From: Escherichia phage vB_Eco_mar004NP2
Sequence record: NC_048205.1
DNA: 64,000 nt
Direction: 5' to 3' (one strand)
Part shown: in pieces, positions 32,961 through 63,399 of the stretch
Numbering within the stretch: position 1 is the stretch's first letter
Layout of the letters: each line of letters begins with the position of its first letter
Position numbers and translations under genes: made by a program
Notes under the pieces: model-generated
What the model saw: the letters and a program-made list of their open reading frames with translations, nothing else
Told to the model about the DNA's origin: nothing
The model's database searches: none

Positions 32961-32965
32961 AATCT

Positions 32966-33712: not shown

Positions 33713-33718
33713 AATACT

Positions 33719-33794: not shown

Positions 33795-33801
33795 AATTAA
33801 T

Positions 33802-33876: not shown

Positions 33877-33890
33877 AATAAGGAAACACT

Positions 33891-34142: not shown

Positions 34143-34309
34143 CAACCTAAAAGTAAAGATTGATAAACAAAAGAAACGTGTAGAAGTAGAGATTGGTGAA
34201 GAACGTGTTGGCTTTACTTTTGAATTTCTACAGCAAATGGCAATGGCAGTTATGACTGATAAGTCTCCTGTTATTGAAAAAGAAATCCCGTTGAAATAAC
34301 GGGATCATC

Positions 34310-34384
34310 GCTCCTAAAGCATTGCTGGCGATGCAGTTGCCTTGTAAGCATCTGAACCGGGTTCGATTCCTGGTGGGAGCACCA
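34310..34384 (+). tRNA. tRNA-Thr (anticodon TGT)
   Basis: D-arm GCAT/ATGC, AC loop CTTGTAA, T-loop TTCGATT. Confidence 0.7.
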
Positions 34385-34399
34385 AATTTAAAAATTCAT

Positions 34400-34428
34400 T
34401 TGCCTTCTCTCTTATTTATTGTTATAAT
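34400..34428 (+). promoter_or_regulatory. T5-type early promoter
   Basis: -35 TTGCCT / 17 bp / -10 TATAAT. Confidence 0.55.
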
Positions 34429-34458
34429 ATTTATATAAATTAATGAGAGGGAAACCAA

Positions 34459-34749
34459 ATGAAACGTTATCTTTCTATTGTATTCCAAACTGGTGGTCAA
34501 AGATATACCTATGAATTTCCATCTTCTTGGAAAATCAAAGAAGGTGATCAAGTAGTAGTGTTAACACCGCGTGAAGGGTATAAAGTAGTAATGGTTAAAC
34601 AAGTATTCCCAAAAGATCATGAACCAGCTAAAGGCATTCGCTATAAGATGATTCATGGTGTGGTCCGTCAAGTACCACGAACTGAGGTAGAAGTAGATAA
34701 GACTGGAGAAACTAAATTCCATTATACTTCTTACTTAGATAGTGTGTGA
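34459..34749 (+). CDS. hypothetical protein
   Basis: ORF with GAGAGGG RBS and promoter. Confidence 0.55.
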   Translation: MKRYLSIVFQTGGQRYTYEFPSSWKIKEGDQVVVLTPREGYKVVMVKQVFPKDHEPAKGIRYKMIHGVVRQVPRTEVEVDKTGETKFHYTSYLDSV

Positions 34750-34764
34750 TGTAAATATTCTAAT

Positions 34765-34841
34765 ACTTCGGTAGCTTAGCGATCTAAAGCACCCGGCTGA
34801 TAACCGAGAGATCGGGGGTTTAAATCCCTCCCGGAGTACCA
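34765..34841 (+). tRNA. tRNA-Ile (anticodon GAT)
   Basis: D-arm GCTT/AAGC, AC loop CTGATAA, T-loop TTTAAAT. Confidence 0.7.
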
Positions 34842-34937
34842 AATTTAGGAATTAAGACTATGCGTCCAGGAAAGTTTAAAAAAGCTAATTGGTCTAAAGA
34901 GTATAAAGAATACTTACTTAGTCTAGTAAAACATAAC

Positions 34938-35013
34938 AGTTAGTTGGCAGAGTGGTTATGCACCTCCTTCATACGGAGCGACTACAGTGGTTCAAATCCA
35001 CTACTAACTACCA
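34938..35013 (+). tRNA. tRNA with CAT anticodon (Met, fMet or Ile2)
   Basis: Perfect acceptor AGTTAGT/ACTAACT, AC loop TTCATAC, T-arm AGTGG/CCACT. Confidence 0.6.
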
Positions 35014-50877: not shown

Positions 50878-51062
50878 TGGAAACTCTTTTTCTTTTAATG
50901 CTCGTAGGTTCCTTGCTAGTTATATTAGCACTTCTACTGATCTGCAATATTCTTAATAATAAGAATCTAGAGCTAAAGTGTGAGAACCAAATCCTTAACC
51001 GTGAACTTAAACAATATAATCTAGCAGCCCATAAACTGTTAGACAAACTGGAGAATAAATAA
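50877..51062 (+). CDS. hypothetical membrane protein
   Basis: TM helix; GGGAG RBS. Confidence 0.45.
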   Translation: METLFLLMLVGSLLVILALLLICNILNNKNLELKCENQILNRELKQYNLAAHKLLDKLENK

Positions 51063-51664
51063 TGTTTACACAACAACCTATTCAAGTAGTACCAGACCAT
51101 GAACTGAACACATGGGATTATAGCCTTAAAGATTTAACTGCTACTGTACAATTCAAATCTATGAAGCTAACATTTGCACACACTGACCTTAGAGCCTGTA
51201 AAGATCTTGAAGGTAAGCTCGAAGATGCTCGTAGGATTTTTGGCACGGCTCGCATCCCGGCTGATAACCTGATTAATGCACTAATCGATGCGGGATACAA
51301 ACTCGTGAAGACTGAGGTGAACCGCCCCAATACTCCAGTGACTATTAGAGACCCGTGGCAGTCAGGGCCAAATACAATGTGGAACAGCCCTAAAATAACG
51401 TCGGATTTGCACAATGTTCCTTGTGGGGGTGTGGTAAGTAGTACGAAGTCATATAAGTTTGGTGAAGATTATGGGCCTTCTGTACAGTTAAAGCATACCC
51501 AAGAAGCTCTTGAATCTGACATGAAAAGCGTAGCGCCTGCGGATACTGAAGGTTTTAGAAGTCCCATCTATGTTACTCACTTTAATAATCTTAGACCTGG
51601 GAGTATAAATGATACTATCCTTGAGGCGTTGGGAGCTGCTCTTAATGAGAGTAAAAAGGATTAA
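51062..51664 (+). CDS. hypothetical protein
   Basis: 200-aa ORF with GGAGA RBS. Confidence 0.55.
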   Translation: MFTQQPIQVVPDHELNTWDYSLKDLTATVQFKSMKLTFAHTDLRACKDLEGKLEDARRIFGTARIPADNLINALIDAGYKLVKTEVNRPNTPVTIRDPWQSGPNTMWNSPKITSDLHNVPCGGVVSSTKSYKFGEDYGPSVQLKHTQEALESDMKSVAPADTEGFRSPIYVTHFNNLRPGSINDTILEALGAALNESKKD

Positions 51665-51744
51665 TAATTTCCTAATACATGAGCCTCTACGGAGGCTCTA
51701 AAATAAAAAGAAGGTCATCCAGACCTTAAAAACGGGAGATAATA

Positions 51745-52629
51745 ATGTATAACTTTAAAGATAAACTAAGACAAAATGCTGGTAAAACAAAACCTAAAGA
51801 GAATAATAATGTTCCTAATGCCAAAGTATTACCATTTCCAGAACTGTCTCAAGAAGAAAAAGATAAGTTAGCATTTATGTTTGATGCTCTTCTAGGGCTA
51901 AGTGGACGTTTATATTCCTCACTCAATATTAATGAGAAACGTCTAGTAGAGATGTTCTGTAAACGTTACCAAGTTACTTCAAAGGGCAATTCTTATAAAG
52001 AAGGTGAAAAAGCATTTACAGTCTTAAAGATTAGCGCATATGCACATCGTTTCTTAGTTTATGGATTGCAAATGGAATACTTCACCATCCCATCATTTAG
52101 CTCTTTCCATATCTTTGAAGATGAACGAATGAATATTGATGATCTCTATGGGGATACGTACAAATACTCAGGAAGTCCATTCCACGATGCATTAAGGAGC
52201 TACCCTACTAGTTACTTACCAGTTAGGGCATCTCAAGGTAAAGCTAGCGTTTTTGCTGTTTACTCAGGATCTAAAGCATCGGATCTAGAAACTTATATAT
52301 TTAAAGAGCGTAAATCTGTACTTCCAGATGAAGCATTGTATAGCAATCCATTGCTTCCAGAAAAAGAACCAGAGAAAATTGATGTAACCCCACCAATCCC
52401 ATCTGATTCTCAATATTTAATTTATGAGAAACAAGTTAAGTTATCCCTAGAAATTGGGTTAGTTACACCGCTTGCTGCAGCGTTCATAAATAGATACCTA
52501 GAAATCCCAGATGAGTTCCACCAACGTTATAATACGAATATTCAGATAACGGATGAATTAATTGCGTTAGCAAAAGATACACCTACTGACACTGAGGCGT
52601 ATCAAAAAGCATACCAAGAGTTATTATAA
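51745..52629 (+). CDS. hypothetical protein
   Basis: 294-aa ORF with GGGAGA RBS; last gene before repeat region. Confidence 0.6.
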   Translation: MYNFKDKLRQNAGKTKPKENNNVPNAKVLPFPELSQEEKDKLAFMFDALLGLSGRLYSSLNINEKRLVEMFCKRYQVTSKGNSYKEGEKAFTVLKISAYAHRFLVYGLQMEYFTIPSFSSFHIFEDERMNIDDLYGDTYKYSGSPFHDALRSYPTSYLPVRASQGKASVFAVYSGSKASDLETYIFKERKSVLPDEALYSNPLLPEKEPEKIDVTPPIPSDSQYLIYEKQVKLSLEIGLVTPLAAAFINRYLEIPDEFHQRYNTNIQITDELIALAKDTPTDTEAYQKAYQELL

Positions 52630-53162
52630 TATTCTGCATGTCTCGGTGCACAATACCTGTACCGAGACTCAAATACAAACTCTCGTTGACAGATAGCTAA
52701 ATGTATGTTATCATAACTCTATGAGTTAATAGAATTAACCATTTAGAGTTGCCACACAGAAGGTGTGGTGGTTCAGTAATTTAAAATTACTAACTTGTAG
52801 CGGAGGATACGGAGCGACAGGACAAGTTAATAAGTAATTTAATATAAATTGCTAGAAACATCACGAGACCTTCTGGCGGGGGCAAAGCTCTATATGAGAA
52901 CCCTGGGGGATCTTATATTTAAAATAAAAGTAAAACTTTTGACCATATAATTTACATTCAAGATGATACACCTGTTGCCGCTCATCTGCTAGGATGGCAC
53001 AACACTTTCTTCTAGACTCCTAAGTTTCTAGGAAAACTCTTACACTCTAGGGCAGTTTCTCTCCAACGTTACATATCCTAGGCCGGTTTAATACAGGGCG
53101 GTTATTGGGAGGGCGGTTATTTCTAGAAGACATTTTTCCAAAACACATTTCCAGAAATTACT

Positions 53163-53764
53163 GTCGGATTCGCACATTGTGTTTCTAGAAATTTATGGTC
53201 GGATTTGCACAATTGCCTAAGTTTTCATGGACACATAATCTCCTGAAAATGGCAGCATTATTTCGGGCCGAAGGCCCATGATTGCCTGAGTTTTTAGAGC
53301 CACAAGAATTTTCACTTGTCAAGCTATTTTGCCACCTTTAGCAAATAAAATTTTACTTTATCTCCACTAATCTCAAATTAACCCAAATCTTCTCAACTCT
53401 TCCCCCAAAAACGCAGCAAATCAGGCGTTGCACGCCACCCATGCTGCTCCTCCAGTTTCTCCACTTATTTTCTCTCGCTCTCTCATCTTCTCCTCAAACC
53501 TATACAATCACACACCCTCCAATCGAAGTCACAAAAATCTTGTCGGATTCGCACATCTTAATCCTAGAAAAACCGTGTCGGATTTGCACATATCCCACAG
53601 GATTCGAACGCAGTTCGAGATTGCTGGAGTTTTTGGGAAAATTCATTGTCGGATTTGCACACTATAAAAATTTTTGGGGTCGGATTTGCACACTACCAAA
53701 AATTGTCGGATTCGCACATACACGCCCGCGCGTAATCCATGGTGGCAAATGTCGGATTTGCACA
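53163..53764. repeat. array of 8 dispersed direct repeats (T/G)GTCGGATT(C/T)GCACA
   Basis: Copies at 53163, 53198, 53541, 53576, 53647, 53678, 53704, 53750 with irregular spacing; iteron-like. Confidence 0.8.
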
Positions 53765-53766
53765 AA

Positions 53767-54000
53767 AGCGCAGGGCAATTGCCCTGCGCTAAATACGAAT
53801 GATAATGAGAATCATTCGTATTTAAAAAGCGGAATAAGAATGATAATAGTTCTCATTTAGAAAGTGAAATGAGAATCAATCTCATTTAAGAAAGGGAATG
53901 AGAACTATTCAAAAAATGAAATGATTCTCATTTAAAAAATGGAATGATTATCGGTTAGATAGTGAAATGCGAATGATAATGATTCTCATTTAAGAATGGA
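53767..54000. repeat. cluster of palindromic repeats (GCGCAGGGCAATTGCCCTGCGC and repeated AATGAGAATCATTCTCATT-type units)
   Basis: Perfect 22-bp palindrome at 53767-53788, then at least 6 copies of an inverted-repeat unit; related copy near 54320. Confidence 0.75.
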
Positions 54001-54083
54001 AGCGAGAAACACTATTATTTAAGTTACCCACAGACTTATTAACAGCACGATTTGATTTGACAGAATCCTAGCCATTTTGAGGC

Positions 54084-54128
54084 GTTATCAACAGACTTAT
54101 CCACAGCTTATCCTACTGTATAAATATA
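54084..54128. promoter_or_regulatory. DnaA-box cluster and left arm of inverted repeat
   Basis: TTATCCACA at 54097-54105 plus near-match TTATCAACA; segment is reverse complement of 57608-57649. Confidence 0.6.
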
Positions 54129-54389
54129 CAGTATTCCTACGCAGTGAATAATTCTAATATAGCGTTAAAACGTCCTAAATCGCATTCTAACGCGCTTAAT
54201 TTTGATGGGGATACTAAAACAAGGGCAAAATTGGAGGAGGCTTAAAAATTAGTTAGCTTGCTAACGATCACACAAGGCGACACGTAACACCCTAATCATT
54301 AGCAGGCTAACCATCACGGGCGCGGTTAAATGAGAATCACTCTCATTTGAGAATTGGGGGCACTCCCTGGTAGTTGCGCCCCGTTATTA

Positions 54390-54584
54390 TTAGTCTGGTA
54401 GTCGATGCGTGATCTTTTCCTCCTCCCCGTAGGAATCCACCAAATGCTGATAATAACCATCGTGATCATAAATCACTTTATCATACTCGCCACGCTCGAC
54501 CGCTTGTCGGTTTTCCGGCGTATCGGGCACGTAAAAAACATCAACCATTGTACTGATTTTGGTTACAACAATTTTATTGCTCAT
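54390..54584 (-). CDS. hypothetical protein (pre-early-region operon)
   Basis: Start at Met 54584 with AGGGG RBS; track ORF uses TTG at 54614. Confidence 0.45.
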   Translation of the reverse strand: MSNKIVVTKISTMVDVFYVPDTPENRQAVERGEYDKVIYDHDGYYQHLVDSYGEEEKITHRLPD

Positions 54585-54686
54585 AATAACCCCTAGTAAA
54601 TATATTTTTGCCAATAGTGGCGAACGTTATCGCCACCAGCGGAATCATTTGCAGCCTCAACATTACCCGCGAAAATATATATAATC

Positions 54687-55031
54687 TCATTGCGCCACCT
54701 TTCGAAACGCTGTTTCAATACTATCCGCAGTGGATTGAATATACGCGCCTTTCATTATCAGGCGCTCGGTGCATATCTTGCGAAAAATATTAATAAAATC
54801 ATCTTCATTTTCTGCAATTAACGCCTCACCCATGACCTGAACGTCGCAAGATGCAAAGGTCAAAAATTGAAACGCTAGTTCACGGGCAACGACCGCATTG
54901 ATTTTATAATGCGCCTTGCCTTCATAAATATTAATAACGCCCTTATAAGCTGGGGAAAGCTGATTTAAGTAGTTTGCTAGTAATGCCGGACGGCAATTAG
55001 CAACAAAACGATTGCCTTCATAAATTACCAT
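54687..55031 (-). CDS. hypothetical protein (pre-early-region operon)
   Basis: Start at Met 55031 with GGGGAG RBS. Confidence 0.5.
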   Translation of the reverse strand: MVIYEGNRFVANCRPALLANYLNQLSPAYKGVINIYEGKAHYKINAVVARELAFQFLTFASCDVQVMGEALIAENEDDFINIFRKICTERLIMKGAYIQSTADSIETAFRKVAQ

Positions 55032-55032
55032 T

Positions 55033-55245
55033 TTATAGCACTCCCCGAAACGCAGCGTAAAAGGTGGCAAAATGTTTAACTGTTTCAGCTATCACGTTGC
55101 CCCGTTTATCGAATTTTTTCTCGGTAACACGGAAGGCGTTTTTATTTCGCGCTACATATTCAATTTTACAATCTTCCCGCTCGAACGTGTTAACGTCCAC
55201 CAGCTTAAAGCCTTTTGAACGTGCAAGGGAAACGTTACGAATCAT
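55033..55245 (-). CDS. hypothetical protein (pre-early-region operon)
   Basis: AAGGAG RBS 7 nt upstream. Confidence 0.55.
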   Translation of the reverse strand: MIRNVSLARSKGFKLVDVNTFEREDCKIEYVARNKNAFRVTEKKFDKRGNVIAETVKHFATFYAAFRGVL

Positions 55246-55247
55246 TT

Positions 55248-55397
55248 TTATTCTCCTTTACTAGTCATGCAGCCCAGCAGATAAGAAAATACAGCGATAC
55301 CCGCACCAATAATAACCGCGTGAACGCCGAAAGCTATTGCAAAAAGTGATAAAATAGCGCCCAAGATACCTGCTAGAATAGCTCGAAAAATAACCAT
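55248..55397 (-). CDS. small membrane protein (49 aa)
   Basis: Unlisted hydrophobic ORF MVIFRAILAGILGAILSLFAIAF... with AGGAGG RBS. Confidence 0.4.
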   Translation of the reverse strand: MVIFRAILAGILGAILSLFAIAFGVHAVIIGAGIAVFSYLLGCMTSKGE

Positions 55398-55446
55398 TTG
55401 TGATAGCCTCCTAGTTATCGGGGGATATTATATCCCCCGTTATTAA

Positions 55447-55677
55447 TTACATTAAAACAATTTTTGCAGCTTGTTTTTTGGTGCAATGTTCCGCCTTCAG
55501 GGTATCCAGCAAAAAGCCAGCCGTTTGCTGATCGATTTTATCGGCGTTATATAGTTCCTGAATGGTATTATAGGTTTTAGCAATACCGAACTCCTGCACC
55601 ATTTCATAGATGACAGCACGATTAGATACCCAGCCTTGCGCGGTAAACAGATGACTAGCAGAAGAATAAGCAACCAT
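55447..55677 (-). CDS. hypothetical protein (pre-early-region operon)
   Basis: Start at Met 55677, GGAGG RBS 6 nt upstream. Confidence 0.5.
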   Translation of the reverse strand: MVAYSSASHLFTAQGWVSNRAVIYEMVQEFGIAKTYNTIQELYNADKIDQQTAGFLLDTLKAEHCTKKQAAKIVLM

Positions 55678-55783
55678 TTTAAGCCTCCAAATTTTTGGGA
55701 AAATTTTCAACCGTCCTTAAACGGTGTAAAGGCATTATAACAAAAAAGGCCACCAATTATGGCGACCTTTACAAAACTTTACA

Positions 55784-56278
55784 TTAAACTACTTGTAATG
55801 TTTCAATATTGAAACATCGTTTCAATTCGTCATGCAAAACAGCGTATTCATCCCATCGGGTACTATCAGGGATATAAACAAGCTGTTTTAGTCGGTTTGC
55901 GTATATTACCGCTTTATTTCCGATTATTTCAGCGCCACCATATTTAATAATTAATTTCATGACGGAATTAATAGGATCGCCGCCGTTTACATATGTGCCG
56001 GATTTACTTAATTGATAATGATAAAGGCTTGCATATACATTATCATTCTCATACCATTCGCCCGTTTCCTCATCTTCATAGCCATCGCTACCAAAACGAG
56101 AAGCATTATCAACAGCCATTTCATGAGCGAAAGCGTCGAGATCCGTACCAGCAGGAACAAAATATTCCTCAGTATTCCCTTCACCGCAATAGCCAGTATG
56201 ACAATCGACCAAAATGATCATATCATGTTTAGCCTTGCTCACTTCCCCTAGCGAAAACCCATATTTTTCCTCAGCCAT
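55784..56278 (-). CDS. hypothetical protein (pre-early-region operon)
   Basis: 164 aa, AGGAGG RBS. Confidence 0.6.
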   Translation of the reverse strand: MAEEKYGFSLGEVSKAKHDMIILVDCHTGYCGEGNTEEYFVPAGTDLDAFAHEMAVDNASRFGSDGYEDEETGEWYENDNVYASLYHYQLSKSGTYVNGGDPINSVMKLIIKYGGAEIIGNKAVIYANRLKQLVYIPDSTRWDEYAVLHDELKRCFNIETLQVV

Positions 56279-56343
56279 TTATTAGCCTCCTATTAATTAA
56301 TAAGGGAATAGTAAAGCGGGGAAACAATCCCCGCTAAATATTA

Positions 56344-57336
56344 TTACTCGCTTTCGGTGCTAGTGGTAAAAGTAGAAATATCGATACCTTTCACCATTTC
56401 ATCAATCATTTCAGCGATGTTAAAACTTTGCACCATTTCTAGCATTGCCGCTTCCATAGCTGCGCCTGCTACCGCTTTCGCTTTCTGGTTATTCGGGGCG
56501 TACTGGTCAACCGCTACGCTCAGCAGGTTAGCAATAACTACCCGACCAATCGGCGTATCAATATAACCTTTAATCATAAACGGCGCTTTTTTAGCCGCTA
56601 CTTTCGTGATTTGAGTCAATGCAATTTTGCCAGCTTCCAGTTTTGCAGCATTTACAACAGCGGATTTATTAGCGGCAACGATATTAGCGATCTTGGTCAT
56701 GGTATTATTTCCTTTGTTTTCAGTAGTTTGAGTGTTAACGCTTTGAGTGTTAGAATTTACAGCATGTTTTTCCGTGTTGTCAATAGGCTGATCTTCCTCC
56801 TTCCAGAAAGAAAAGCCCGCGCTTTCAATATCCCCATCATATACATAAGGGTACACTTCCGACGGTAACAAAAAATTACCGTTATCATCAAAGGCCATTA
56901 CAGCCGCGAAACGATACCCGTCACAATCCGACCGATTCCAGCCAACTGATAAATAACGCCAAAATGAATCAAGAAAATTTTCAATATCATAAAGATCATT
57001 GGGGTTGGCTTCATAATTTTCTATTGAAAAAACTTCTAAGCCTGCCCCAGTATCATAGGCTTTTACTGTGCTACCTTTTACGATTATGAAATCAGTATCC
57101 GGCCCTCGACTAGTGAGCAATTGATAATCTTGATTATATAAAACAAGCGTTGCCCCTTGTTTATATAACGGTAGAAAACTATTCATATCATAGGCATCGA
57201 AATCACCAAAAAAGTTTTGGTGAATAGTTTCAGCCTTGTTAATAAAATGTTTAATGCTGGTTGTTCTGCTACCGTCCAGCAGGTTACGCAGCGCACCTTT
57301 TAAGACGGTTGCGTTATCTGGTTTATATAGCCTCAT
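56344..57336 (-). CDS. hypothetical protein (pre-early-region operon)
   Basis: 330 aa, GAGGGAGG RBS; first gene of minus-strand operon. Confidence 0.6.
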   Translation of the reverse strand: MRLYKPDNATVLKGALRNLLDGSRTTSIKHFINKAETIHQNFFGDFDAYDMNSFLPLYKQGATLVLYNQDYQLLTSRGPDTDFIIVKGSTVKAYDTGAGLEVFSIENYEANPNDLYDIENFLDSFWRYLSVGWNRSDCDGYRFAAVMAFDDNGNFLLPSEVYPYVYDGDIESAGFSFWKEEDQPIDNTEKHAVNSNTQSVNTQTTENKGNNTMTKIANIVAANKSAVVNAAKLEAGKIALTQITKVAAKKAPFMIKGYIDTPIGRVVIANLLSVAVDQYAPNNQKAKAVAGAAMEAAMLEMVQSFNIAEMIDEMVKGIDISTFTTSTESE

Positions 57337-57607
57337 TTGTTGGCCTCCCTCGTTAATCGGTGAGTGAATGATAAAGGCAATTTTCTAGCATAGGCAAATA
57401 TTATTTTACCTTTTTATTTTCCTTGCCTAGCGCCTAGTTTTATGCTAACCGCGCAGCGGTACAGTAAAGAGCAAAACACGGTGAAGCCACCAGGGCGACG
57501 GGTGAAGGCTTCACTTTAATATTACCCCACCGCATTTAGCTCGTTAGAAAGCGTTTTAGGCCGCCTAAAATTGATTGCAGTTGTTAACACTACCTTTTTA
57601 CCCTGTA

Positions 57608-57710
57608 TATTTATACAGTAGGATAACATGTGGATAAGTCTGTGGATAAGTCCTTATATCGTCGCCTATCGTGTCAAATCATTTTGTGCTGTTAATAAAC
57701 TTGTGGATAA
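57608..57710. promoter_or_regulatory. DnaA-box cluster and right arm of inverted repeat
   Basis: TGTGGATAA at 57629, 57641, 57702; CTGTATATTTATACAGTAGGATAA mirrors 54.1 kb copy. Confidence 0.6.
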
Positions 57711-57993
57711 CTTAAATGATAGTGGTTCTCACTTAGGACGATAGTTTCTTATAGTTATTATTTCTATCGGTTACGATTTCTTATAATTATTATTTCTCAT
57801 TAATTTATAAGTATATTATATATCATGAAATAGTTAGTTGGCTAATGAGATTTTCCGTGATTAATAGTCTGCTAACAGTTCCGGCTGTTACAATCCACCA
57901 GCATGATTATCATCCTAGCAACTATTAGTCTGCTATCTTTCCGATGCATACTAACAAATAAAAGTCAATTAATTTATTTCATAAAATAAGTAG

Positions 57994-58069
57994 TTATCCA
58001 CTGGAAAATAAAAGTCAAGTGGATAACTAGGAAAATTTCATTTTTGCTTTTGGGGATAAGTTATCAACA
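57994..58069. promoter_or_regulatory. additional DnaA-box-like sites
   Basis: TTATCCACT, AGTGGATAA, TTATCAACA near-consensus boxes. Confidence 0.45.
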
Positions 58070-58482
58070 AGGCTAGAATGCGCCTAAAACGCCCTATAAC
58101 GCGATGAAGTTTTTAGCCATGCCATTGCATTGCCTACCCTCGTTTATCGCTACCACGAGCTTTTTAGTTTTTGTCAAGTAGGGCAAGGCAAATATAAATG
58201 AAAAAATTACTTGCCAACCTGCTGGGTTTTATGGTATTCGCGCGCCCGTTTCCTTTAATTTTAGTGCGCCGCGCCCAGGTCGCCGCACGGTGTCCGGTGG
58301 CATTTTGTCTTTACGTTTCTTTACAAAAATAAGGTTGCGCCATTTTTACTATTTGCTATTATTTATCTCGTAGGGCGGCAATGACGAACTACACGGCGGG
58401 AAGTTTACCGCCGCGCTCTTTAAAAATTGGGTACATCTTAAAGTCTATCGGCGGTAAACTTATATTATAAGGAATCGCAGAT

Positions 58483-58686
58483 ATGAAACAAACTTTATTG
58501 ATCACTGGTAAACCAGCTAAAAAATTAGATGGTACTACTAAAAAATTGTTGACAATAGCCCAGCAATCCGTAAAATACCGATTTGCTCAGTACAAGAAAG
58601 GCCGCCAGCAGGGTTTAGAAATGATCTGGCGTAATATTATGATCGACCTGAAAGAAAATCATAAAAAACTGCAAAAAACAGTTTGA
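58483..58686 (+). CDS. hypothetical basic protein
   Basis: 67-aa ORF with AAGGAA RBS. Confidence 0.5.
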   Translation: MKQTLLITGKPAKKLDGTTKKLLTIAQQSVKYRFAQYKKGRQQGLEMIWRNIMIDLKENHKKLQKTV

Positions 58687-58916
58687 CACCCTAGCCGATA
58701 GGCTTTAAGATGTACCCAGTTCGATGAGAGCGATAACTTGATACAATTTGACGGTTAGGTGATTCCCCATAAATCATCCTGCCCCCTAACTGGGATATAG
58801 CAGCCTGCGTGGAGTTCCTTAAATTGATTATAGCGGTGAGCGGATTGTTGCTTATTACCTGCTACTTTCTAGCAGGTAATGCGGAACAATCCCCTAAATA
58901 ACTTGGAGTTTATACT

Positions 58917-59168
58917 ATGCAAAACGTTATTACCGCGCCTAAAATTGGTCAATCCGTTTTTATTCCTTTCGTTACTAAAACGGATGAACTAACCGGAAAA
59001 GCCGAACGTATTAAAGGTGCGGCGCTTATGCCGTTTGATACAATCGACGCGGTATACGCTGAAAATGAACGTAGTAACAACGGCAAAACCGTTTTTAGCG
59101 TTCGCGTTAAATCCGGCGACGTTGTAAAGGTTGTACAGCGTAACGAAAAATGGGAAGCTGTAGCGTAA
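58917..59168 (+). CDS. hypothetical protein
   Basis: TGGAGTTTAT RBS context; hairpin follows. Confidence 0.55.
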   Translation: MQNVITAPKIGQSVFIPFVTKTDELTGKAERIKGAALMPFDTIDAVYAENERSNNGKTVFSVRVKSGDVVKVVQRNEKWEAVA

Positions 59169-59264
59169 TAGTGTTACTTTTATATCCCCCAGTAGTTCGG
59201 GGGATATAACGATTAACATTATGTTAATCTTATCCCTTAAATTAAACTAATAGGAGTTTTTACC

Positions 59265-59672
59265 ATGACTAACGTTAAAACCGCAAAATTTGCTTGGAAT
59301 GAAGAAAACACTCAAAAAGCTGTTTCTATGTACCAGCAGTTAATTAATGAAAACGGTTTAGATTTCGCAAATAGCGACGGTTTAAAAGAGATTGCAAAAG
59401 CAGTGGGCGCGTCTTCTCCCGTGTCTGTTCGCTCAAAATTGACCAGCGCAAAAGCGTATCAGAAAAGCGATAAGCCTCGCAAAGTTGGCGGCGGTAGCTC
59501 AATCCGCAAAGCTCACTATGTACGCGTTATCGCTAAACATGCTATTGATTCCGGCATTATTAAAGACGCCGACGATCTGGCAAGTCTGGAAAGTGCAAAA
59601 CTTGAAACGCTGGACGCCGTAGCGCAACTGTTAGGCGTTGCCGATGAAGTAAAACAGGCCGCAGGTGAATAA
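59265..59672 (+). CDS. hypothetical protein
   Basis: AGGAGTTTTT RBS context. Confidence 0.55.
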   Translation: MTNVKTAKFAWNEENTQKAVSMYQQLINENGLDFANSDGLKEIAKAVGASSPVSVRSKLTSAKAYQKSDKPRKVGGGSSIRKAHYVRVIAKHAIDSGIIKDADDLASLESAKLETLDAVAQLLGVADEVKQAAGE

Positions 59673-59728
59673 ATTTAATTAGTGGGGAATATTCCCCACT
59701 ATAATTTCCCTTTGACTGGAGTTTTAAA

Positions 59729-59926
59729 ATGATCTTTTACCCCACTGAATCGTTAATTTTAGGCTTATTTATTATGGCGGCCTCGTTATTATTCGCTTAT
59801 TTTCAAAATGATTTAGACTCATATTATTTTAAACGTAAGTCTAAATTGGCAAAGCGTTTAGGTCTGATTTGTTTTATTGCCGCCATTGCTTGTGGTGTTA
59901 GTTCTAGCCTTATGCCTTTAAATTAA
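59729..59926 (+). CDS. hypothetical membrane protein
   Basis: Two TM helices; TGGAGTTTTA RBS. Confidence 0.5.
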   Translation: MIFYPTESLILGLFIMAASLLFAYFQNDLDSYYFKRKSKLAKRLGLICFIAAIACGVSSSLMPLN

Positions 59927-60023
59927 TGTTGCAAATTATAACGCCTATTATTCAAGGCGTTATATTTGGCAATATTTGCCAATAACAAACGTTTTTTAAT
60001 CCCTTTAATGGAGTTTTATTAAT

Positions 60024-61688
60024 ATGATTATTTCCGCAGAAAAACAAACCGTTATCCTGAAAATGGCCGCTGACTTTAATTTCTATGGTAAACGTCTGCG
60101 CGCTACTAAACTGGAGGTCTGCGACGATATATCAAAAGCGGTCTACGATACAACAAAACACTCGACCGCTATCTGCGACTGGTTGGAAGCAAATAAACCA
60201 GCTAAACCGAAAGCGGCGAAAGTAGCAAAAGCCATTAAAAACGATGAGCGTCCAGAAGCGGCGGGGATTGTTTCTAGCACGGTTGAGCAATGGGAAGTAA
60301 AGCAGGGTAAACGCTTTATTATTACGTCGATTCAGAATAATACTTTCCCGCATAAAAACTTTTTAGCCTCATTGGAGCAATTTGCTAAATATATCGGCGC
60401 TGATTTGCTGGTTAGCAAGTTTATTTATAACAAAAACGGTTTTCAAAATGGCGAGGGTGCAGAAGGAATAAAATATGATTCCGCATTTGACAAATATATC
60501 TGCAATAAAAACGTGTTTTTAAATAACCGCCGTTTTGCTTTCATGGCTGAAATTAACGTTTTGCCAACCGCAGATTATCCGCTTTCTGGATTCGCTGAAA
60601 CTGCAACGGCGCTTAATCTGGAAGGTCTGGCAATTGGTCACGCTAAAATTACCGCTGAAAGCGTGCCAGCTTTAAAAGGTGAAGTAGTGCGCCGTATGTA
60701 CTCAACCGGAACGGCAACGCTCAAAAACTACATTCAGCAGAAAGCAGGACAAAAGGCCGAGGCGCTGCATAACTTCGGTGCGCTAATTGTCGAGTTCGAC
60801 GAGGACGGGGAATTTTTTGTACGCCAGCTCGAAACGATGGACGAAAGCGGGGTATTTTATGATCTGAATGTGTGCGCTACTCCTGCCGGATGCTATGAGA
60901 CATCGGGGCATGTTTTAGGCTTGCAATACGGCGATATTCACGCAGAAAAACTAGATGATGATTGTGCCGTTGCGTCATGGGCTGGCGAAAATAGCTTGCT
61001 TGATATTCTCAAGCCTAAATATCAGTTTATCCATGACGTGCATGATTTTACATCACGCAACCATCACAACCGCGCATCCGGTGTATTCCTAGCAAAACAA
61101 TACGCCGCCGGACGTGATAAGGTATTAGATGATCTTATCGATACGGGGCGCGTGCTGGAATCAATGGAACGTGATTTCTCGCAAACAATCATTGTTGAAT
61201 CTAATCACGATTTGGCGCTATCCCGTTGGCTTGATGATCGTAATGCTAACATTAAAGACGATCCAGCAAACGCGGAACTATATCACCGCCTAAATGCCGC
61301 GATTTATGGAGCTATTGCAGAAAAAGACGATACTTTCAACGTGCTAGATTATGCGCTGCGCAAGGTTGCAGGTTGTGAGTTTAACGCCATTTTTCTAACT
61401 ACTGACCAATCTTTCAAGATTGCAGGCATTGAATGCGGCGTACACGGTCACAACGGCATTAACGGCAGCCGTGGCAATCCTAAACAATTTAAGAAATTGG
61501 GCAAATTAAACACCGGACACACTCACACCGCCAGCATTTATGGCGGCGTGTATACCGCTGGCGTAGCTGGTAGTCTGGACATGGGTTACAACGTTGGCGC
61601 GTCAAGCTGGACGCAAACGCATTTAATTACCTATGCAAACGGTCAGCGCACTTTGATTGACTTTAAAAACGGTAAATTCTTTGCGTAA
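60024..61688 (+). CDS. A1-like pre-early protein, calcineurin-like metallophosphoesterase
   Basis: 554 aa; GDIHAE, ESNHD, VHGHNG, GHTHTASIY phosphoesterase motifs; size matches T5 A1 (about 556 aa, from memory). Confidence 0.65.
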   Translation: MIISAEKQTVILKMAADFNFYGKRLRATKLEVCDDISKAVYDTTKHSTAICDWLEANKPAKPKAAKVAKAIKNDERPEAAGIVSSTVEQWEVKQGKRFIITSIQNNTFPHKNFLASLEQFAKYIGADLLVSKFIYNKNGFQNGEGAEGIKYDSAFDKYICNKNVFLNNRRFAFMAEINVLPTADYPLSGFAETATALNLEGLAIGHAKITAESVPALKGEVVRRMYSTGTATLKNYIQQKAGQKAEALHNFGALIVEFDEDGEFFVRQLETMDESGVFYDLNVCATPAGCYETSGHVLGLQYGDIHAEKLDDDCAVASWAGENSLLDILKPKYQFIHDVHDFTSRNHHNRASGVFLAKQYAAGRDKVLDDLIDTGRVLESMERDFSQTIIVESNHDLALSRWLDDRNANIKDDPANAELYHRLNAAIYGAIAEKDDTFNVLDYALRKVAGCEFNAIFLTTDQSFKIAGIECGVHGHNGINGSRGNPKQFKKLGKLNTGHTHTASIYGGVYTAGVAGSLDMGYNVGASSWTQTHLITYANGQRTLIDFKNGKFFA

Positions 61689-61744
61689 ATAATTAATCCC
61701 CTAGCGGCTTGAAATATAGCCGCTATTACAGGAGCTAAATTAGA

Positions 61745-62002
61745 ATGAAAGTTACATTACCCAAAACGCTAGACGAAAAAGCATTTATTTCACCGGATGA
61801 AATGGAATCCGATAAAGTTTACAGCTTCGGGCCTATTCTAGCCGCCAAAACTAATACTGATGGGATTATTACGGTCGATTATCGTGATAATGATATTGTA
61901 CCCTTTGACGATGATGGTGCTTTTTATGAGTGGCTAAGCGATAATAATTTACCCGTAAACGGTGAATTAACGCCGTACCAGATGCAGATTATTATCAAAT
62001 AA
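61745..62002 (+). CDS. hypothetical protein
   Basis: 85-aa ORF with AGGAG RBS. Confidence 0.5.
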   Translation: MKVTLPKTLDEKAFISPDEMESDKVYSFGPILAAKTNTDGIITVDYRDNDIVPFDDDGAFYEWLSDNNLPVNGELTPYQMQIIIK

Positions 62003-62040
62003 ATTAAATCCATTATTAAACTAATTGGAGTTTTATAAAC

Positions 62041-62433
62041 ATGAAAAAGCAAAATATTCCATTTGACCGCGCTCAATCCTCAATTGTTCTGGTTTATTCT
62101 AATGGTGAGCGTTACCACGTCGAGGCGGGGCACGTTATTGATGAATTGCTAGATTTCAATGACGCTTTGCAGGTTACAACATTTGCATATATGCAAGGCA
62201 AACTAACTAGCCATATTAAAGCAAAAGGCGTTTATGTTGACACGGTGAAACAAGAAACGATTATCATCGACGCAGTAAAATCCGGTCTAACCTTTGCAGT
62301 TGTCGCGCCTTGCCCCGCTTGCCTTGATGATCAATTGATTTCTGCAAAAGTATATACTTGTGCGGGGATTCGTTCCCATGTATCAGGTGAGGATGTTAGT
62401 TTTATCGCCGATGCGTTGGCTTATGGTCTTTAA
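62041..62433 (+). CDS. hypothetical pre-early protein (possibly A2-like)
   Basis: 130 aa next to A1-like gene; TGGAGTTTTA RBS; assignment by position and size only. Confidence 0.4.
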   Translation: MKKQNIPFDRAQSSIVLVYSNGERYHVEAGHVIDELLDFNDALQVTTFAYMQGKLTSHIKAKGVYVDTVKQETIIIDAVKSGLTFAVVAPCPACLDDQLISAKVYTCAGIRSHVSGEDVSFIADALAYGL

Positions 62434-62512
62434 TAGTTAATTTATTATTACCCGCTTATAAATAGCGGGTAATGCTGAATTAATCTAATCCCTTAAATGG
62501 AGAACGTAACAA

Positions 62513-63247
62513 ATGAATAAAGCTATCATGAATCTTTCCCGCAGCTTCCCGCATATTTCCCGCGTCATGATTTGGGATTTAGACGGCACTATCATTAATT
62601 CTTTCCATCGTGTAGCACCCTGCTTTGATAGCGAGGGCAATTTAGATTTAAATAAGTATAAAAATGAAGCGTGTAAACACCATTTAATAATGCAAGATAC
62701 TTTATTGCCATTGGTTGAATATATGCGCCAGTGCATGAATGACGCAAATACTTTAAACATTATTTGCACCGCTCGACTGATGAGTAAGTCGGACTATTAT
62801 TTCTTGCGTAAACAAGGGTTGCGCGGTCGTGGTAATAGTAATATCCGCGTATTTTCCCGCGATACACTACACAAATATTTTAAAGCTGATAAGGTTAGCG
62901 AAATATACCACAGCAAAGACGCAGTATATAAATCTTATTATTTTGAATTATTTAAACAGTTATATCCTAACGCTGATTTTACAATGATTGATGATCATAA
63001 AGGCGTGCTATCAGCGGCAGCGTCATACGGATTTAAAACGCTGGACGCACAAGCCGTTAATGATATTCTATCAATCGGCGTGGCATTGATAGGTGAAACC
63101 TTTATTGATGAATCTCTCGACGATGATAATGATTATCAATTCCTAGCTGACCGTTTAAAATTATGCTGGGAAGGTATGACCGAGGAAGAACGCGCAGAAT
63201 ATAGTTGCAGTCCTCAACAATATATTGAGAAATTAAAAGTTGCCTAA
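62513..63247 (+). CDS. dmp: HAD-family 5'-deoxyribonucleotidase (dmp-like)
   Basis: RVMIWDLDGTIIN HAD motif I; 244 aa; pre-early location. Confidence 0.6.
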   Translation: MNKAIMNLSRSFPHISRVMIWDLDGTIINSFHRVAPCFDSEGNLDLNKYKNEACKHHLIMQDTLLPLVEYMRQCMNDANTLNIICTARLMSKSDYYFLRKQGLRGRGNSNIRVFSRDTLHKYFKADKVSEIYHSKDAVYKSYYFELFKQLYPNADFTMIDDHKGVLSAAASYGFKTLDAQAVNDILSIGVALIGETFIDESLDDDNDYQFLADRLKLCWEGMTEEERAEYSCSPQQYIEKLKVA

Positions 63248-63399
63248 CAATTAAAGTTGAAATAGTCACGGTGTGTAATGATACCATGCCGTGACTATTA
63301 GCCTGCTAAGTACCGGGCGGTAATGAGACTCATTCTCATCTGGGGGGCCACTGGACACACCCACGCGTACGTAATCCAAAGAAATTGGCAAAAGTCAAA

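What the first reader, a model, noticed from the sequence alone, without database searches (positions are those of the whole stretch)
53163..54128. Iteron-like direct repeats, palindromes and a DnaA box at the early/pre-early boundary
Eight copies of (T/G)GTCGGATT(C/T)GCACA at irregular spacing, a perfect 22-bp palindrome, several copies of an AATGAGAATCATTCTCATT-type unit and a DnaA box lie in an ORF-free 1.7 kb. Its position, about 10 kb from the window's right end, fits the region where T5 is reported to have an injection-stop signal rich in repeats and DnaA sites (from memory). The repeat array could act as a protein-binding platform for injection pausing or replication control.
Basis: partly seen in the sequence, partly recalled or inferred. 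Interest (0 to 1): 0.6.

Follow-up and report, generated by a model that had tools for sequence, protein, structure and literature searches.

The report
Phage T5 injection-stop repeat region
This is a T5-like phage's copy of the long-known, repeat-rich non-coding stretch at the inner end of the terminal repeat, where phage T5 pauses DNA injection; it is real and strongly conserved but already described, and how it works is still unproven.

Summary
There are eight exact, co-oriented copies of GTCGGATTYGCACA, against 0.44 expected by chance. There is also a perfect 22/24-bp palindrome, an array of AATGAGAATCATTCTCATT-type units and a consensus DnaA box with three near-consensus ones. All lie in 1.76 kb with no conserved ORF.

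The window is a T5-like phage in reverse orientation. The stretch aligns base-for-base (about 88%) with the feature annotated "injection stop signal" in T5 (NC_005859 9140-10149), which Davison calls "Repeat Region 3". The finding is therefore a correct rediscovery of a known element.

Three things were added here:
- **Repeat boundary.** The right end of the long terminal repeat (the terminase cut) falls inside the repeat array, at 53296|53297. Two repeats lie outside it and six inside. This layout is kept in Klebsiella, Serratia and Pectobacterium T5-like phages.
- **Fur-box resemblance.** The palindromic units match the Fur-box consensus as well as real E. coli Fur operators do. No held paper found in one search links the two.
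- **Nick site.** T5's 7.9% nick maps to the edge of the palindrome.

The mechanism remains inference: a multi-protein platform for the injection stop and for defining the repeat boundary. An iteron-type replication origin is unlikely.

The parts
52630..54389 (.). Non-coding gap between the last early gene (T5.018-like, + strand, stop at 52629) and the last pre-early gene (T5.017-like, - strand, stop at 54390). The two transcription units converge on it.
   Evidence: ORF list; PHROG matches for the two flanking ORFs only; the 139-aa internal ORF is not conserved.
52960..54240 (.). Core conserved non-coding block, mostly 75-99% column identity with dips to 16-66% at 53040-53080, 53440-53480 and 53840-53880, across 7 Tequintavirus/Epseptimavirus relatives. 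It is the orthologue of T5 'Repeat Region 3' / iss.
   Evidence: Multiple alignment conservation track; pairwise map to T5; T5 annotation; Davison 2020.
53163..53211 (+). DRD cluster A: two copies of GTCGGATTYGCACA (53163-53176 and 53198-53211). They lie on the unique side, 134 and 99 bp outside the repeat boundary.
53265..53277 (.). GC hairpin GGGCCGAAGGCCC just outside the boundary. This 20-bp bin is 99% conserved.
53280..53295 (+). 16-nt motif GATTGCCTGAGTTTTT abutting the cut. Two further copies are at 53211-53226 and 53619-53634.
   Evidence: family D8.
53296..53297 (.). Predicted right boundary of the long direct terminal repeat, i.e. the genome's right physical end: ...GAGTTTTTA|GAGCCACAAGAATTTTCACTTGTCAAGC. 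The repeat would span 53297-63357 (10,061 bp).
   Evidence: The same site is annotated as the repeat end in T5, MM-1, SIA3lw and Sepoy, the last by PhageTerm. My1 has it at the homologous spot. Seven to eight full-length genome records end exactly there.
53306..53324 (+). GAATTTTCACTTGTCAAGC, a motif starting 10 nt inside the terminus. It is conserved even in Pectobacterium phage My1 (GAACTTTTTCATTTGTCAATC).
53300..53540 (+). Strand-asymmetric tract: C-rich on the + strand and G-rich on the T5 top strand. GC skew reaches -0.61.
53542..53764 (+). DRD cluster B: six copies starting at 53542, 53577, 53648, 53679, 53705 and 53751. They lie inside the repeat, 245-454 bp from the boundary.
   Evidence: The offsets are the same in T5 and six other genomes.
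53767..53790 (.). Perfect 24-bp palindrome AGCGCAGGGCAATTGCCCTGCGCT. T5's annotated 'major DNA single-chain interruption' (9748/9749, the 7.9% nick) maps to 53768/53767. PhageTerm places Klebsiella phage Sugarland's repeat end at the homologous GCGC.
53790..54020 (.). AT-rich array (27% GC) of palindromic units. The consensus is AATGA[G/T]AAT[G/C]ATT[C/A][T/G]CATTT. They resemble Fur boxes, matching the consensus GATAATGATAATCATTATC at 13-15 of 19 positions.
54024..54105 (+). Two pairs of DnaA boxes, 3 bp apart within each pair: TTACCCACA/TTATTAACA (54024-54044) and TTATCAACA/TTATCCACA (54085-54105). This is T5's IRD'-spacer-IRC'.
   Evidence: (family D9); Davison 2020.
54115..54132 (.). 18-bp palindrome ACTGTATAAATATACAGT next to the DnaA boxes.
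   Evidence: aligned to T5 with two central mismatches.
54329..54347 (.). Isolated palindromic unit AATGAGAATCACTCTCATT, just past the 3' end of the pre-early operon. T5 has no copy at this position.
57629..57710 (-). Partner DnaA-box cluster with three TTATCCACA (T5 'Repeat Region 2', IRC-spacer-IRD). It is inverted relative to 54024-54105.
51400..51413 (+). Solitary ninth DRD copy inside the T5.019-like ORF, in the same orientation. A copy at a similar distance (about 1.7-2.6 kb upstream of cluster A) recurs in most related genomes.

Best explanation
The stretch is the orthologue of the phage T5 injection-stop-signal region ('Repeat Region 3'). This is a composite, cis-acting, non-coding control region that straddles the inner (right) boundary of the 10-kb terminal repeat.

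Shown here:
- It is homologous and collinear with the T5 iss feature.
- The terminal-repeat end (the terminase cut) lies at 53296|53297, inside the repeat array.
- The 14-bp DRD sites are strictly co-oriented and form two clusters that bracket this cut.
- T5's 7.9% nick maps to the GC palindrome that closes cluster B.
- On the side that enters the cell first lie an array of Fur-box-like palindromes and two pairs of DnaA boxes.

Inferred mechanism: the region is a platform for several sequence-specific proteins and does two jobs.

1. The DnaA boxes, and possibly the Fur-like units, are the last sequences delivered in the first step. They sit at the mapped shear point (about 7.9% of the genome). 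They load host proteins that help hold the DNA at the arrest, as Davison proposed for DnaA. I give this about 0.35.

2. The co-oriented DRD array is read by a conserved phage-encoded factor, most likely the terminase small subunit or a partner, to define where the terminal repeat ends during packaging. I give this about 0.3.

Because the left end is injected first, packaging should start at this right-hand boundary and move into cluster B. That step rests on the general last-in-first-out rule, not on T5 data.
For: Identity:
- 88.5% alignment to T5 12571-9317, with a base-level map of iss, repeat end and nick.
- The order of elements matches Davison's description.
- 454 phage records match, essentially all T5-like.

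Boundary:
- Annotated at an identical site in T5, MM-1, SIA3lw and Sepoy, and at the homologous site in My1.
- Genome records L048, L057, L060, L063, L078 and L083 start exactly with GAGCCACA. L070 has the variant GGGCCACA at the same position, and L041 starts one base earlier.
- The 53240-53320 segment is 94-99% conserved per 20-bp bin, among the highest values in the region.

DRD repeats:
- 99 copies in 11 phages are all on one strand, with a 14-position high-information logo.
- The two-cluster layout around TTTTA|GAGCCACA is kept in Klebsiella phages. Serratia phage Kamaji and Pectobacterium phage My1 keep two DRD clusters, and My1's annotated boundary lies between its two.
- DRD pairs occur almost only in T5-sized viral contigs, and in no Enterobacterales genome.

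Host-factor sites:
- All four perfect TTATCCACA boxes in the 64 kb lie in the repeat.
- Fur-like scores of 13-15 of 19 here, and up to 17 of 19 in relatives, compare with 13-16 of 19 in the E. coli fhuA, fepA-fes, entS and entC promoter regions.
- None of 2000 composition-matched simulations reaches the observed counts, and AT-rich control windows reach at most 13.
Against: - No protein has been shown to bind any of these sites in any T5-like phage, so both mechanistic steps are inference.
- The T5 small terminase is only 52% identical between T5 and Klebsiella T5-like phages, while the DRD core is unchanged. That is uncomfortable for a co-evolving phage factor.
- Cluster B starts 245 bp from the cut, further than typical small-terminase sites.
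- No DRD lies near the left end of the repeat.
- Three annotations put the repeat end elsewhere (Kenya-K18, Kenya-K20, saus111K). Sugarland's PhageTerm call sits at the nick-homologous site. Some of the concordant ends may have been set by analogy to T5.
- Host proteins can bind only DNA already inside the cell, so they cannot by themselves explain why translocation stops.
- T5 ejects its whole genome in vitro with FhuA alone, although mostly stepwise.
Confidence: 0.5

Rival explanations
1. Davison's DnaA-anchor model, extended. Membrane-bound host DnaA binds the DnaA boxes of the entering DNA and physically holds it. The DRDs would be further low-affinity DnaA sites, because their 3' nine bases ATTTGCACA match TTWTNCACA at 8 of 9 positions. 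A1/A2 would then cut or release the DNA so that the second step can proceed.
For: - Paired DnaA boxes 3 bp apart are conserved here and in Kamaji and My1, as in 25 phages surveyed by Davison.
- The only part of the DRD kept in a distant Vibrio T5-like phage (A1 34% identical) is the DnaA-like half, xTTYGCACAT.
- Two Klebsiella DRD copies read TTTTGCACA, a full match to the relaxed consensus.
Against: - The 5' half GTCGG is as strongly conserved as the DnaA-like half across Escherichia, Klebsiella, Serratia and Pectobacterium phages. DnaA recognition does not explain this.
- Box position 4 is C in 3 of the 8 copies here, and position 2 is A in some Klebsiella copies.
- Spacing of 26-46 bp is unlike DnaA filament arrays.
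- At the arrest the DRDs lie beyond the shear point, so they are not yet in the cytoplasm (inference).
- The model is untested.
Confidence: 0.2
2. Virion-side stall. The stop is read inside the particle rather than in the cell. The internal copy of the packaging boundary (cluster A, hairpin, cut-site sequence), or the nick at the palindrome, jams at the head-tail connector. A1/A2 are needed to pull the DNA through.
For: - Geometry: reported T5 tail lengths are 160-250 nm, which is 470-735 bp of DNA.
- Adding this to the shear point (about T5 9618-9700, near window 53820) puts the DNA at the connector at about window 53350-53085. That stretch holds the repeat boundary and DRD cluster A, which exist only at the left-repeat junction.
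- In vitro, T5 ejection is mostly stepwise, with pauses that correspond to nick positions. Jamming in the connector or tail has been proposed.
Against: - A significant share of particles eject without halting in vitro, and complete injection into FhuA proteoliposomes has been demonstrated, so there is no absolute intrinsic block.
- The shear-point estimate dates from the 1970s-80s and has an error of hundreds of bp.
- From my own knowledge, not checked here: nick-less T5 mutants are reported to be viable.
Confidence: 0.1
3. Iteron-type replication origin: the DRDs are iterons for a phage initiator, helped by the adjacent DnaA boxes and AT-rich DNA, as in P1 oriR or RK2 oriV.
For: - The anatomy fits: DnaA boxes, then a 230-bp stretch at 27% GC, then co-oriented direct repeats.
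- In Klebsiella phages and My1, cluster A has a regular 27-bp spacing.
- Arrays with the same core (TCGGAATTGCACTCAT, 23-bp spacing) sit next to a primase gene in Weeksellaceae elements.
Against: - No initiator gene is adjacent. The neighbouring roughly 245-aa gene diverges to 24-52% identity while the DRD stays constant.
- The Weeksellaceae neighbour protein has no detectable homologue in the window.
- Spacing in Tequintaviruses is irregular.
- Davison cites electron-microscopy work placing T5 origins near the genome centre, and replication genes are not expressed during the first step.
- The array is split by the genome terminus.
Confidence: 0.07
4. The palindromic units are genuine Fur operators. 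Host Fur-Fe2+ coats the roughly 230-bp array at the arrest point. It would act as a roadblock, or tie the infection programme to iron status; T5's receptor FhuA is itself Fur-regulated. This is a sub-hypothesis and does not exclude the others.
For: - Matches of 13-15 of 19 to the Fur consensus here and 14-17 of 19 in 10 relatives, including My1.
- These are comparable to four real E. coli Fur-regulated promoter regions at 13-16 of 19.
- All seven hits of at least 15 of 19 in the 64 kb lie in the terminal repeat.
- None of 2000 simulations reaches the observed counts.
- The fhuA operator AATCATTCTCGTTTA is 14 of 15 identical to a phage unit.
Against: - This is consensus similarity only.
- The commonest unit carries a symmetric G/C departure (GAGAAT...ATTCTC) from the Fur hexamer. 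That could mean a different dimeric protein, for example the DNA-binding dimer A2.
- The units are replaced by a different AT-rich repeat in Serratia phage Kamaji.
- BF23-type phages use BtuB, which (from memory) is not Fur-regulated.
- The one held paper containing both 'phage T5' and 'Fur box' was not opened, and its title is unrelated.
Confidence: 0.15
5. The stretch encodes small proteins, as several GenBank records annotate, or the repeats are chance.
For: - A 139-aa ORF is present.
- PMBT29 annotates 8 hypothetical proteins under the match.
Against: - The ORF has no PHROG match and is interrupted in five of seven relatives.
- The repeats far exceed chance and are conserved across phage subfamilies.
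Confidence: 0.02

Closest known systems
Phage T5 injection stop signal (iss) / 'Repeat Region 3' of the left terminal repeat (annotated in NC_005859; analysed in Davison 2020, bioRxiv 10.1101/866236; earlier papers recalled from memory as Heusterspreute 1987 and Wang 2005, neither of them read here)
   Same: Same position, between pre-early and early genes and spanning the repeat end. About 88% sequence identity. The same elements appear in the same order: DnaA-box pairs, DRC/palindrome units, GC palindrome with the nick site, then DRD repeats.
   Different: There are 8 DRDs in the array rather than T5's 9; T5's extra copy sits in a 46-bp insertion absent here. One extra 29-bp palindromic unit lies at 53868-53896. 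Further units at 54329 and 63322 are not found in T5.
Repeated recognition sites flanking a terminase cut (P1 pac hexamer repeats, lambda cosB R sites, SPP1 pacL/pacR; all recalled from memory)
   Same: Short sequence-specific repeats lie on both sides of the site where the packaging enzyme makes the genome end.
   Different: The distances are much larger here (99-134 bp outside the cut and 245-454 bp inside). All copies are co-oriented. No binding of any T5 terminase subunit has been shown.
Iteron-containing plasmid/phage origins (P1 oriR, RK2 oriV, pSC101; recalled from memory)
   Same: DnaA boxes, AT-rich DNA and co-oriented direct repeats of 14-20 bp.
   Different: There is no adjacent initiator gene, the spacing is irregular, the array is split by a genome terminus, and T5 origins are mapped elsewhere.
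E. coli Fur operators (fhuA, fepA-fes, fepD-entS, fepB-entC promoter regions)
   Same: Overlapping GATAAT-like hexamers in 6-1-6 / 7-1-7 palindromes, with equal or better consensus scores than those operators.
   Different: The array is not at a promoter. The dominant variant is GAGAAT rather than GATAAT. Binding is untested.
Chromosomal DnaA-box clusters (oriC, datA; recalled from memory)
   Same: Several consensus and near-consensus 9-mers are clustered and arranged in pairs.
   Different: There is no unwinding-element logic, and each pair is exactly 3 bp apart. A second, inverted cluster lies 3.5 kb away.

Membership tests
T5-type injection-stop region (Repeat Region 3) | Lies at the inner end of the long terminal repeat, in the non-coding gap between pre-early and early genes | tested here: met
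   The gap 52630-54389 lies between the T5.017-like and T5.018-like genes. The repeat end is at 53296|53297.
T5-type injection-stop region (Repeat Region 3) | Sequence homology to T5 9140-10149 | tested here: met
   88.5% identity over 3.3 kb; the iss feature maps to window 54398-53367.
T5-type injection-stop region (Repeat Region 3) | Paired DnaA / DnaA-like boxes 3 bp apart, with an inverted partner cluster further inside the repeat | tested here: met
   Pairs at 54024-54044 and 54085-54105; partner cluster at 57629-57710 on the opposite strand.
T5-type injection-stop region (Repeat Region 3) | Series of DRD direct repeats and DRC/palindrome units in the T5 order | tested here: met
T5-type injection-stop region (Repeat Region 3) | DNA transfer actually arrests here until A1/A2 are made | not testable with these tools
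   This needs blender-shear or qPCR time courses on this phage.
Iteron replication origin | Regularly spaced iterons bound by an initiator encoded next to them | tested here: not met
   Spacing is 26-344 bp. The neighbouring genes have no Rep-like family match, and the neighbour gene diverges while the DRD is constant.
Iteron replication origin | DnaA box and AT-rich region adjacent | tested here: met
Iteron replication origin | Replication initiates at the site | not testable with these tools
   Published electron microscopy, as cited by Davison, places origins near the genome centre.
Terminase recognition site (pac/cos type) | Immediately associated with the genome terminus | tested here: met
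   The DRD clusters lie at -134/-99 and +245 to +454 from the boundary. The layout is conserved in Klebsiella phages and My1.
Terminase recognition site (pac/cos type) | Bound by the small terminase subunit and required for cutting/packaging | not testable with these tools
   There is only an indirect check: the small terminase is 52% identical between T5 and Klebsiella phages while the DRD core is unchanged. This is inconclusive.
Fur box | Match to the 19-bp consensus GATAATGATAATCATTATC at the level of known operators | tested here: met
   Three sites score 15 of 19, and relatives reach 17 of 19. Known E. coli operator regions score 13-16 of 19. None of 2000 simulations reaches the observed counts.
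Fur box | Fur-Fe2+ binding / iron-dependent effect | not testable with these tools
   This needs a gel shift or footprint, a Fur titration assay, or a fur mutant host.
Known RNA family | Reaches an Rfam gathering score | tested here: not met
   Only two far-sub-threshold matches (SprD at 29 of 100 bits, PrrF at 23 of 90 bits). No tRNA lies in the interval.

The most novel reading that the evidence does not exclude
The co-oriented DRD array would not be part of a host-DnaA plug. It would be a polar signal read by the phage's own machinery. Under this reading it marks the terminase cut that creates the right end of the terminal repeat. The internal copy of that packaging boundary sits about one tail length beyond the mapped shear point, and it would be what stalls at the head-tail connector during first-step transfer. 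In parallel, the palindromic units would be true Fur operators, making the host iron regulator a player in T5 injection.
Probability: 0.1. Interest if true: 0.75.

Novelty: already known. Interest (0 to 1): 0.3.

Why it matters
How T5 stops after injecting about 8% of its genome and then restarts has been an open question for more than 50 years. This region is the only candidate cis-signal for the stop, and nobody has tested it experimentally.

The finding itself adds nothing beyond the published description. The analysis here sharpens what to test:
- The terminal-repeat end lies inside the repeat array.
- The DRDs are strictly polar and kept across Demerecviridae that infect Enterobacterales.
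- The palindromic units are statistically Fur-box-like.
- The sequences that would sit at the connector during the arrest are the boundary and DRD cluster A.

Each point gives a simple binding or deletion experiment.

Tried and rejected
- **Structured RNA in the repeat region.** Rfam at a permissive threshold gave only chance-level matches, and no tRNA lies in the interval.
- **Coding potential.** The 139-aa and 79-aa ORFs have no PHROG match, and the 139-aa ORF is not conserved in relatives.
- **An 'ultra-conserved' stretch.** Window 52640-52950 is about 99% identical to T5. It turned out to be a module shared only with T5 and Kenya-K20, not a family-wide element.
- **A host DRD array.** Scanning 185,579 bacterial and archaeal species genomes for DRD pairs found none in Enterobacterales. 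It did find Weeksellaceae arrays with the same core next to a primase gene. Their neighbouring protein has no homologue in the window and no family match, so I treat the resemblance as probably coincidental.
- **The neighbouring gene as DRD binder.** It diverges far too fast for this.
- **Conservation of terminase small subunit versus A2 versus A1 as a discriminator.** All three follow phylogeny, at 52%, 66% and 72% identity between T5 and Klebsiella phages, so the comparison is not decisive.
- **Other regulator sites.** By eye, the DRD does not fit LexA, CRP, IHF, sigma-54, H-NS or Pho-box consensus sequences as I recall them. No tool was used for this.
- **Chi sites.** There is no Chi site in the G-rich tract next to the terminus, although three lie deeper in the repeat.
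- **Davison's 2015 review.** It could not be retrieved.
Full report
**What the window is.** The 1.85 kb around the finding matches 454 phage records, essentially all T5-like (Demerecviridae). The best match is Salmonella phage PMBT29 at 95%. Against T5 itself, window 51001-54225 aligns to T5 12571-9317 on the opposite strand at 88.5% identity. The window is therefore a T5-like genome read in reverse orientation.

The pre-early genes occupy 54.4-63.2 kb: A1 at 60024-61688, A2 at 59265-59672 and dmp at 62513-63247. The dmp gene ends at 63247. The T5 left-end sequence (the reverse complement of TGTCCACTG...) is recognisable, ending at 63357. Beyond that the window runs straight into genes found at the right end of the T5 unique region. 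The source assembly therefore has the terminal repeat collapsed. The repeat's left physical end is at 63357|63358.

**Checking the observation.** Every element is present.
- GTCGGATTYGCACA occurs exactly eight times between 53163 and 53764, all on the + strand, with a ninth copy at 51400. Shuffles give 0.44 matches on average, and none of 100 reached ten.
- The palindrome is perfect over 24 bp, at 53767-53790.
- AATGAGAATCATTCTCATT-type units are clustered at 53798-53990, with another at 54329.
- TTATCCACA lies at 54097-54105. It is paired 3 bp from TTATCAACA. A second pair, TTACCCACA/TTATTAACA, lies 61 bp away.
- The gap between conserved genes is 52630-54389. The one sizeable ORF in it (139 aa) has no PHROG match. 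It is broken in T5, Kenya-K20, Kenya-K18, MM-1 and Sepoy.

**What it corresponds to.** The T5 reference record annotates 'injection stop signal (iss)' at 9140-10149. It gives the left terminal repeat as 1-10219 and a 'major DNA single-chain interruption' at 9748/9749. A base-level alignment maps these to window 54398-53367, 53297 and 53768/53767 respectively.

Davison's preprint describes the same stretch as 'Repeat Region 3'. He lists it in this order: IRD'-spacer-IRC' with DnaA boxes, DRE/DRC repeats and palindromes palE-palJ, nine DRD repeats, then DRA. He states that it overruns the repeat end by about 270 bp. The window shows this order in reverse.

Papers from 2023 and 2026 still describe it only as a repeat-rich non-coding region where transfer halts. 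The 2023 paper says experimental studies are lacking.

**Conservation.** I aligned seven Tequintavirus/Epseptimavirus relatives. The block 52960-54240 is mostly 75-99% identical per 20-bp bin, but dips to 16-66% at 53040-53080, 53440-53480 and 53840-53880. Conservation falls away in the coding sequence on the pre-early side. The peaks are at:
- 52960-53020;
- the DRDs;
- 53240-53320;
- 53480-53555;
- the palindrome;
- the DnaA-box segment.

Window 52640-52950 is about 99% identical to T5, but only T5 and Kenya-K20 share it. It is a mosaic module rather than a family-wide element.

**The terminal-repeat boundary lies inside the repeat array.** Annotated repeat ends in T5, MM-1, SIA3lw and Sepoy (the last by PhageTerm) fall at one identical site...CCTGAGTTTTTA|GAGCCACARGAATTTTCACTTGTCAAGC. 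Pectobacterium phage My1, from a different subfamily, has its end at the homologous position upstream of GAACTTTTTCATTTGTCAATC.

Among contigs retrieved from the viral collection, six full-length genomes including T5 begin exactly with GAGCCACA when oriented like the window. A seventh begins GGGCCACA at the same position, and an eighth starts one base earlier. In the window this site is 53296|53297, giving a 10,061-bp repeat.

Not all annotations agree. Kenya-K18, Kenya-K20 and saus111K annotate other points. Sugarland's PhageTerm boundary falls right after the last DRD, at GCGC. That is the position homologous to the T5 nick. A frequent nick can probably mimic a terminus in read pile-ups. Some of the concordant ends may also have been set by analogy with T5, so they are not all independent.

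**Anatomy around the boundary.** Relative to the first base of the repeat, the DRDs lie at -134 and -99 (cluster A, unique side). Inside the repeat they lie at +245, +280, +351, +382, +408 and +454 (cluster B). T5 and several other genomes have nearly the same offsets.

A 16-nt motif abuts the cut and recurs next to both DRD clusters (D8). A GC hairpin lies 19 bp outside the cut. The first roughly 240 bp inside the repeat is strongly strand-asymmetric, with GC skew down to -0.61.

I collected 99 DRD copies from 11 phages. All lie on the same strand. The logo is (A-rich)...(T)GTCGGATT(T/C)GCACA(T), with about 14 informative positions.

The two-cluster layout around TTTTA|GAGCCACA is kept in Klebsiella T5-like phages, where cluster A has a 27-bp spacing. 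Pectobacterium phage My1 keeps the two clusters with its annotated boundary between them, and Serratia phage Kamaji keeps two DRD clusters. A Vibrio T5-like phage whose A1 is only 34% identical keeps just the 3' half, xTTYGCACAT, at 13-bp spacing.

DRD pairs occur almost only in T5-sized viral contigs. They occur in no Enterobacterales genome.

**The palindromic units look like Fur boxes.** Seventy units from 11 phages give the consensus AATGA[G/T]AAT[G/C]ATT[C/A][T/G]CATTT. This is the 6-1-6 / 7-1-7 core of the Fur box.
- Against GATAATGATAATCATTATC the window has three sites at 15 of 19 within 53801-53975. Relatives reach 16-17 of 19, including My1.
- As a calibration, the best sites in four genuine E. 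coli K-12 Fur-regulated promoter regions score 14 (fhuA), 13 (fepA-fes), 16 (entS) and 15 (entC).
- None of 2000 composition-matched simulations of the 231-bp array reaches the observed counts. Forty-four equally AT-rich control windows elsewhere in the phage never exceed 13.
- All seven hits of at least 15 of 19 in the 64 kb lie inside the terminal repeat.
- Davison's text never mentions Fur. A search of the held library found one paper containing both 'phage T5' and 'Fur box'. I did not open it, and its title concerns coliphages in infant faeces.

This is sequence similarity only. The commonest variant carries a symmetric departure from the Fur hexamer (GAGAAT/ATTCTC). Kamaji has a different AT-rich repeat in this position. 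A phage dimer such as A2 is an equally reasonable reader.

**DnaA boxes.** All four exact TTATCCACA boxes in the window lie in the repeat. One is here and three are in the inverted partner cluster at 57629-57710, as Davison describes. The 3' nine bases of the DRD (ATTTGCACA) match the relaxed DnaA consensus at 8 of 9 positions. This keeps a DnaA reading of the DRDs alive. It does not explain the equally conserved GTCGG half.

**How it most likely works.** The firm part is that this is the iss / Repeat Region 3 orthologue, and that it also contains the terminase-generated right end of the repeat. The rest is inference.

DNA enters the cell left end first. In window coordinates that means from 63357 downwards. 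The order of entry is DnaA boxes, then Fur-like units, then the palindrome and nick, then DRD cluster B, then the boundary, then cluster A.

The classical shear point is at about 7.9% of the genome. That is about 9618 in AY587007 numbering. I estimate it at roughly window 53820, within the palindromic array. At the arrest the host-factor-like sites are therefore the last DNA inside the cell, which fits a host-protein hold as in Davison's model.

The DRDs would still be in the tail. Tail lengths of 160-250 nm correspond to 470-735 bp. The DNA at the connector would then be about 53350-53085, which holds the boundary and cluster A.

Strict polarity, bracketing of the cut and restriction to T5-like phages make a packaging-boundary role for the DRDs the reading I favour, at about 0.3. 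An accessory role in the stop comes next.

Against the packaging reading, the small terminase is only 52% identical between T5 and Klebsiella phages while the DRD core is unchanged. Cluster B is also hundreds of bp from the cut.

An iteron origin is unlikely for four reasons. No adjacent initiator gene is present. The neighbouring gene evolves fast. Spacing is irregular. Published origin mapping places initiation elsewhere.

**Verdict.** The residual value lies in three testable refinements:
- the boundary lies inside a polar DRD array;
- the palindromic units are Fur-box-like;
- the boundary and cluster A would sit at the connector during the arrest.

Noticed in passing
window 52686-52935 (+): A near-consensus sigma-70 promoter lies at 52686-52714 (TTGACA, 17-nt spacer, TATCAT, with a TG extension; 11 of 12 positions). 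It is followed by a 214-nt segment that folds into a long, very stable hairpin as RNA (-63.8 kcal/mol, z = -6.5). The module is about 99% identical to T5 but is found only in T5 and Kenya-K20 among the relatives compared. It has no Rfam match. It could be a small structured RNA or a DNA-level inverted repeat.
   Followed up: partly
window 54633, 55197 and 57895 (- strand): The only three exact Chi sites (GCTGGTGG) in the 64 kb all lie inside the terminal repeat, all on the same strand. In this orientation RecBCD would recognise them when entering from the right-hand end of the repeat.
   Followed up: no
window 63322-63340 and 63357|63358: The window crosses the left physical end of the terminal repeat, so the source assembly has the repeat collapsed. 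A palindromic unit (TAATGAGACTCATTCTCAT, 15 of 19 to the Fur consensus) sits 17 nt inside that end. T5 has no such unit there.
   Followed up: partly
window 63119-63143 (inside the dmp ORF): TGATAATGATTATCA is a perfect 7-1-7 Fur-type palindrome, scoring 16 of 19 to the Fur consensus. This is the best match in the window, and it lies within coding sequence.
   Followed up: no
L021:3700-4000, L027:1589-1900, L031:1670-1945 (Kaistella and Chryseobacterium genomes): Weeksellaceae genomes carry arrays of up to 8-9 co-oriented TCGGAATTGCACTCAT repeats at 23-bp spacing. The core is the same as the phage DRD. In L021 and L027 they lie between an uncharacterised 369-376-aa gene and a zinc-ribbon/Toprim primase gene, which looks like the origin of a mobile element. 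The 369-aa protein has no Pfam or NCBIfam match and no homologue in the window.
   Followed up: partly
L035 (Klebsiella phage Sugarland), record position 10138: PhageTerm places Sugarland's repeat end immediately after the last DRD, at GCGC. This is the position homologous to T5's 7.9% nick rather than to the T5 repeat end. It suggests that nicks can be mistaken for termini, or that the boundary really differs in this genus.
   Followed up: partly
L006:72-818, L007:2-727, L008:54-785, L011:184-948, L012:496-1233, L034:3882-4652: The first early gene next to the repeat region is a roughly 245-aa protein of unknown function. It diverges unusually fast (24-52% identity between phages that otherwise share 70-90%). 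In this window, T5 and Kenya-K20 a 294-aa protein with no BLAST similarity to this family takes its place.
   Followed up: partly
window 51400-51413 (+), inside ORF 51062-51664: A solitary exact DRD copy lies in coding sequence about 1.75 kb upstream of cluster A, in the same orientation. A copy at a similar distance (about 1.7-2.6 kb) recurs in most related genomes retrieved.
   Followed up: partly
window 25133-35013 (+): A block of 21 tRNA genes, as expected for a T5-like phage.
   Followed up: no
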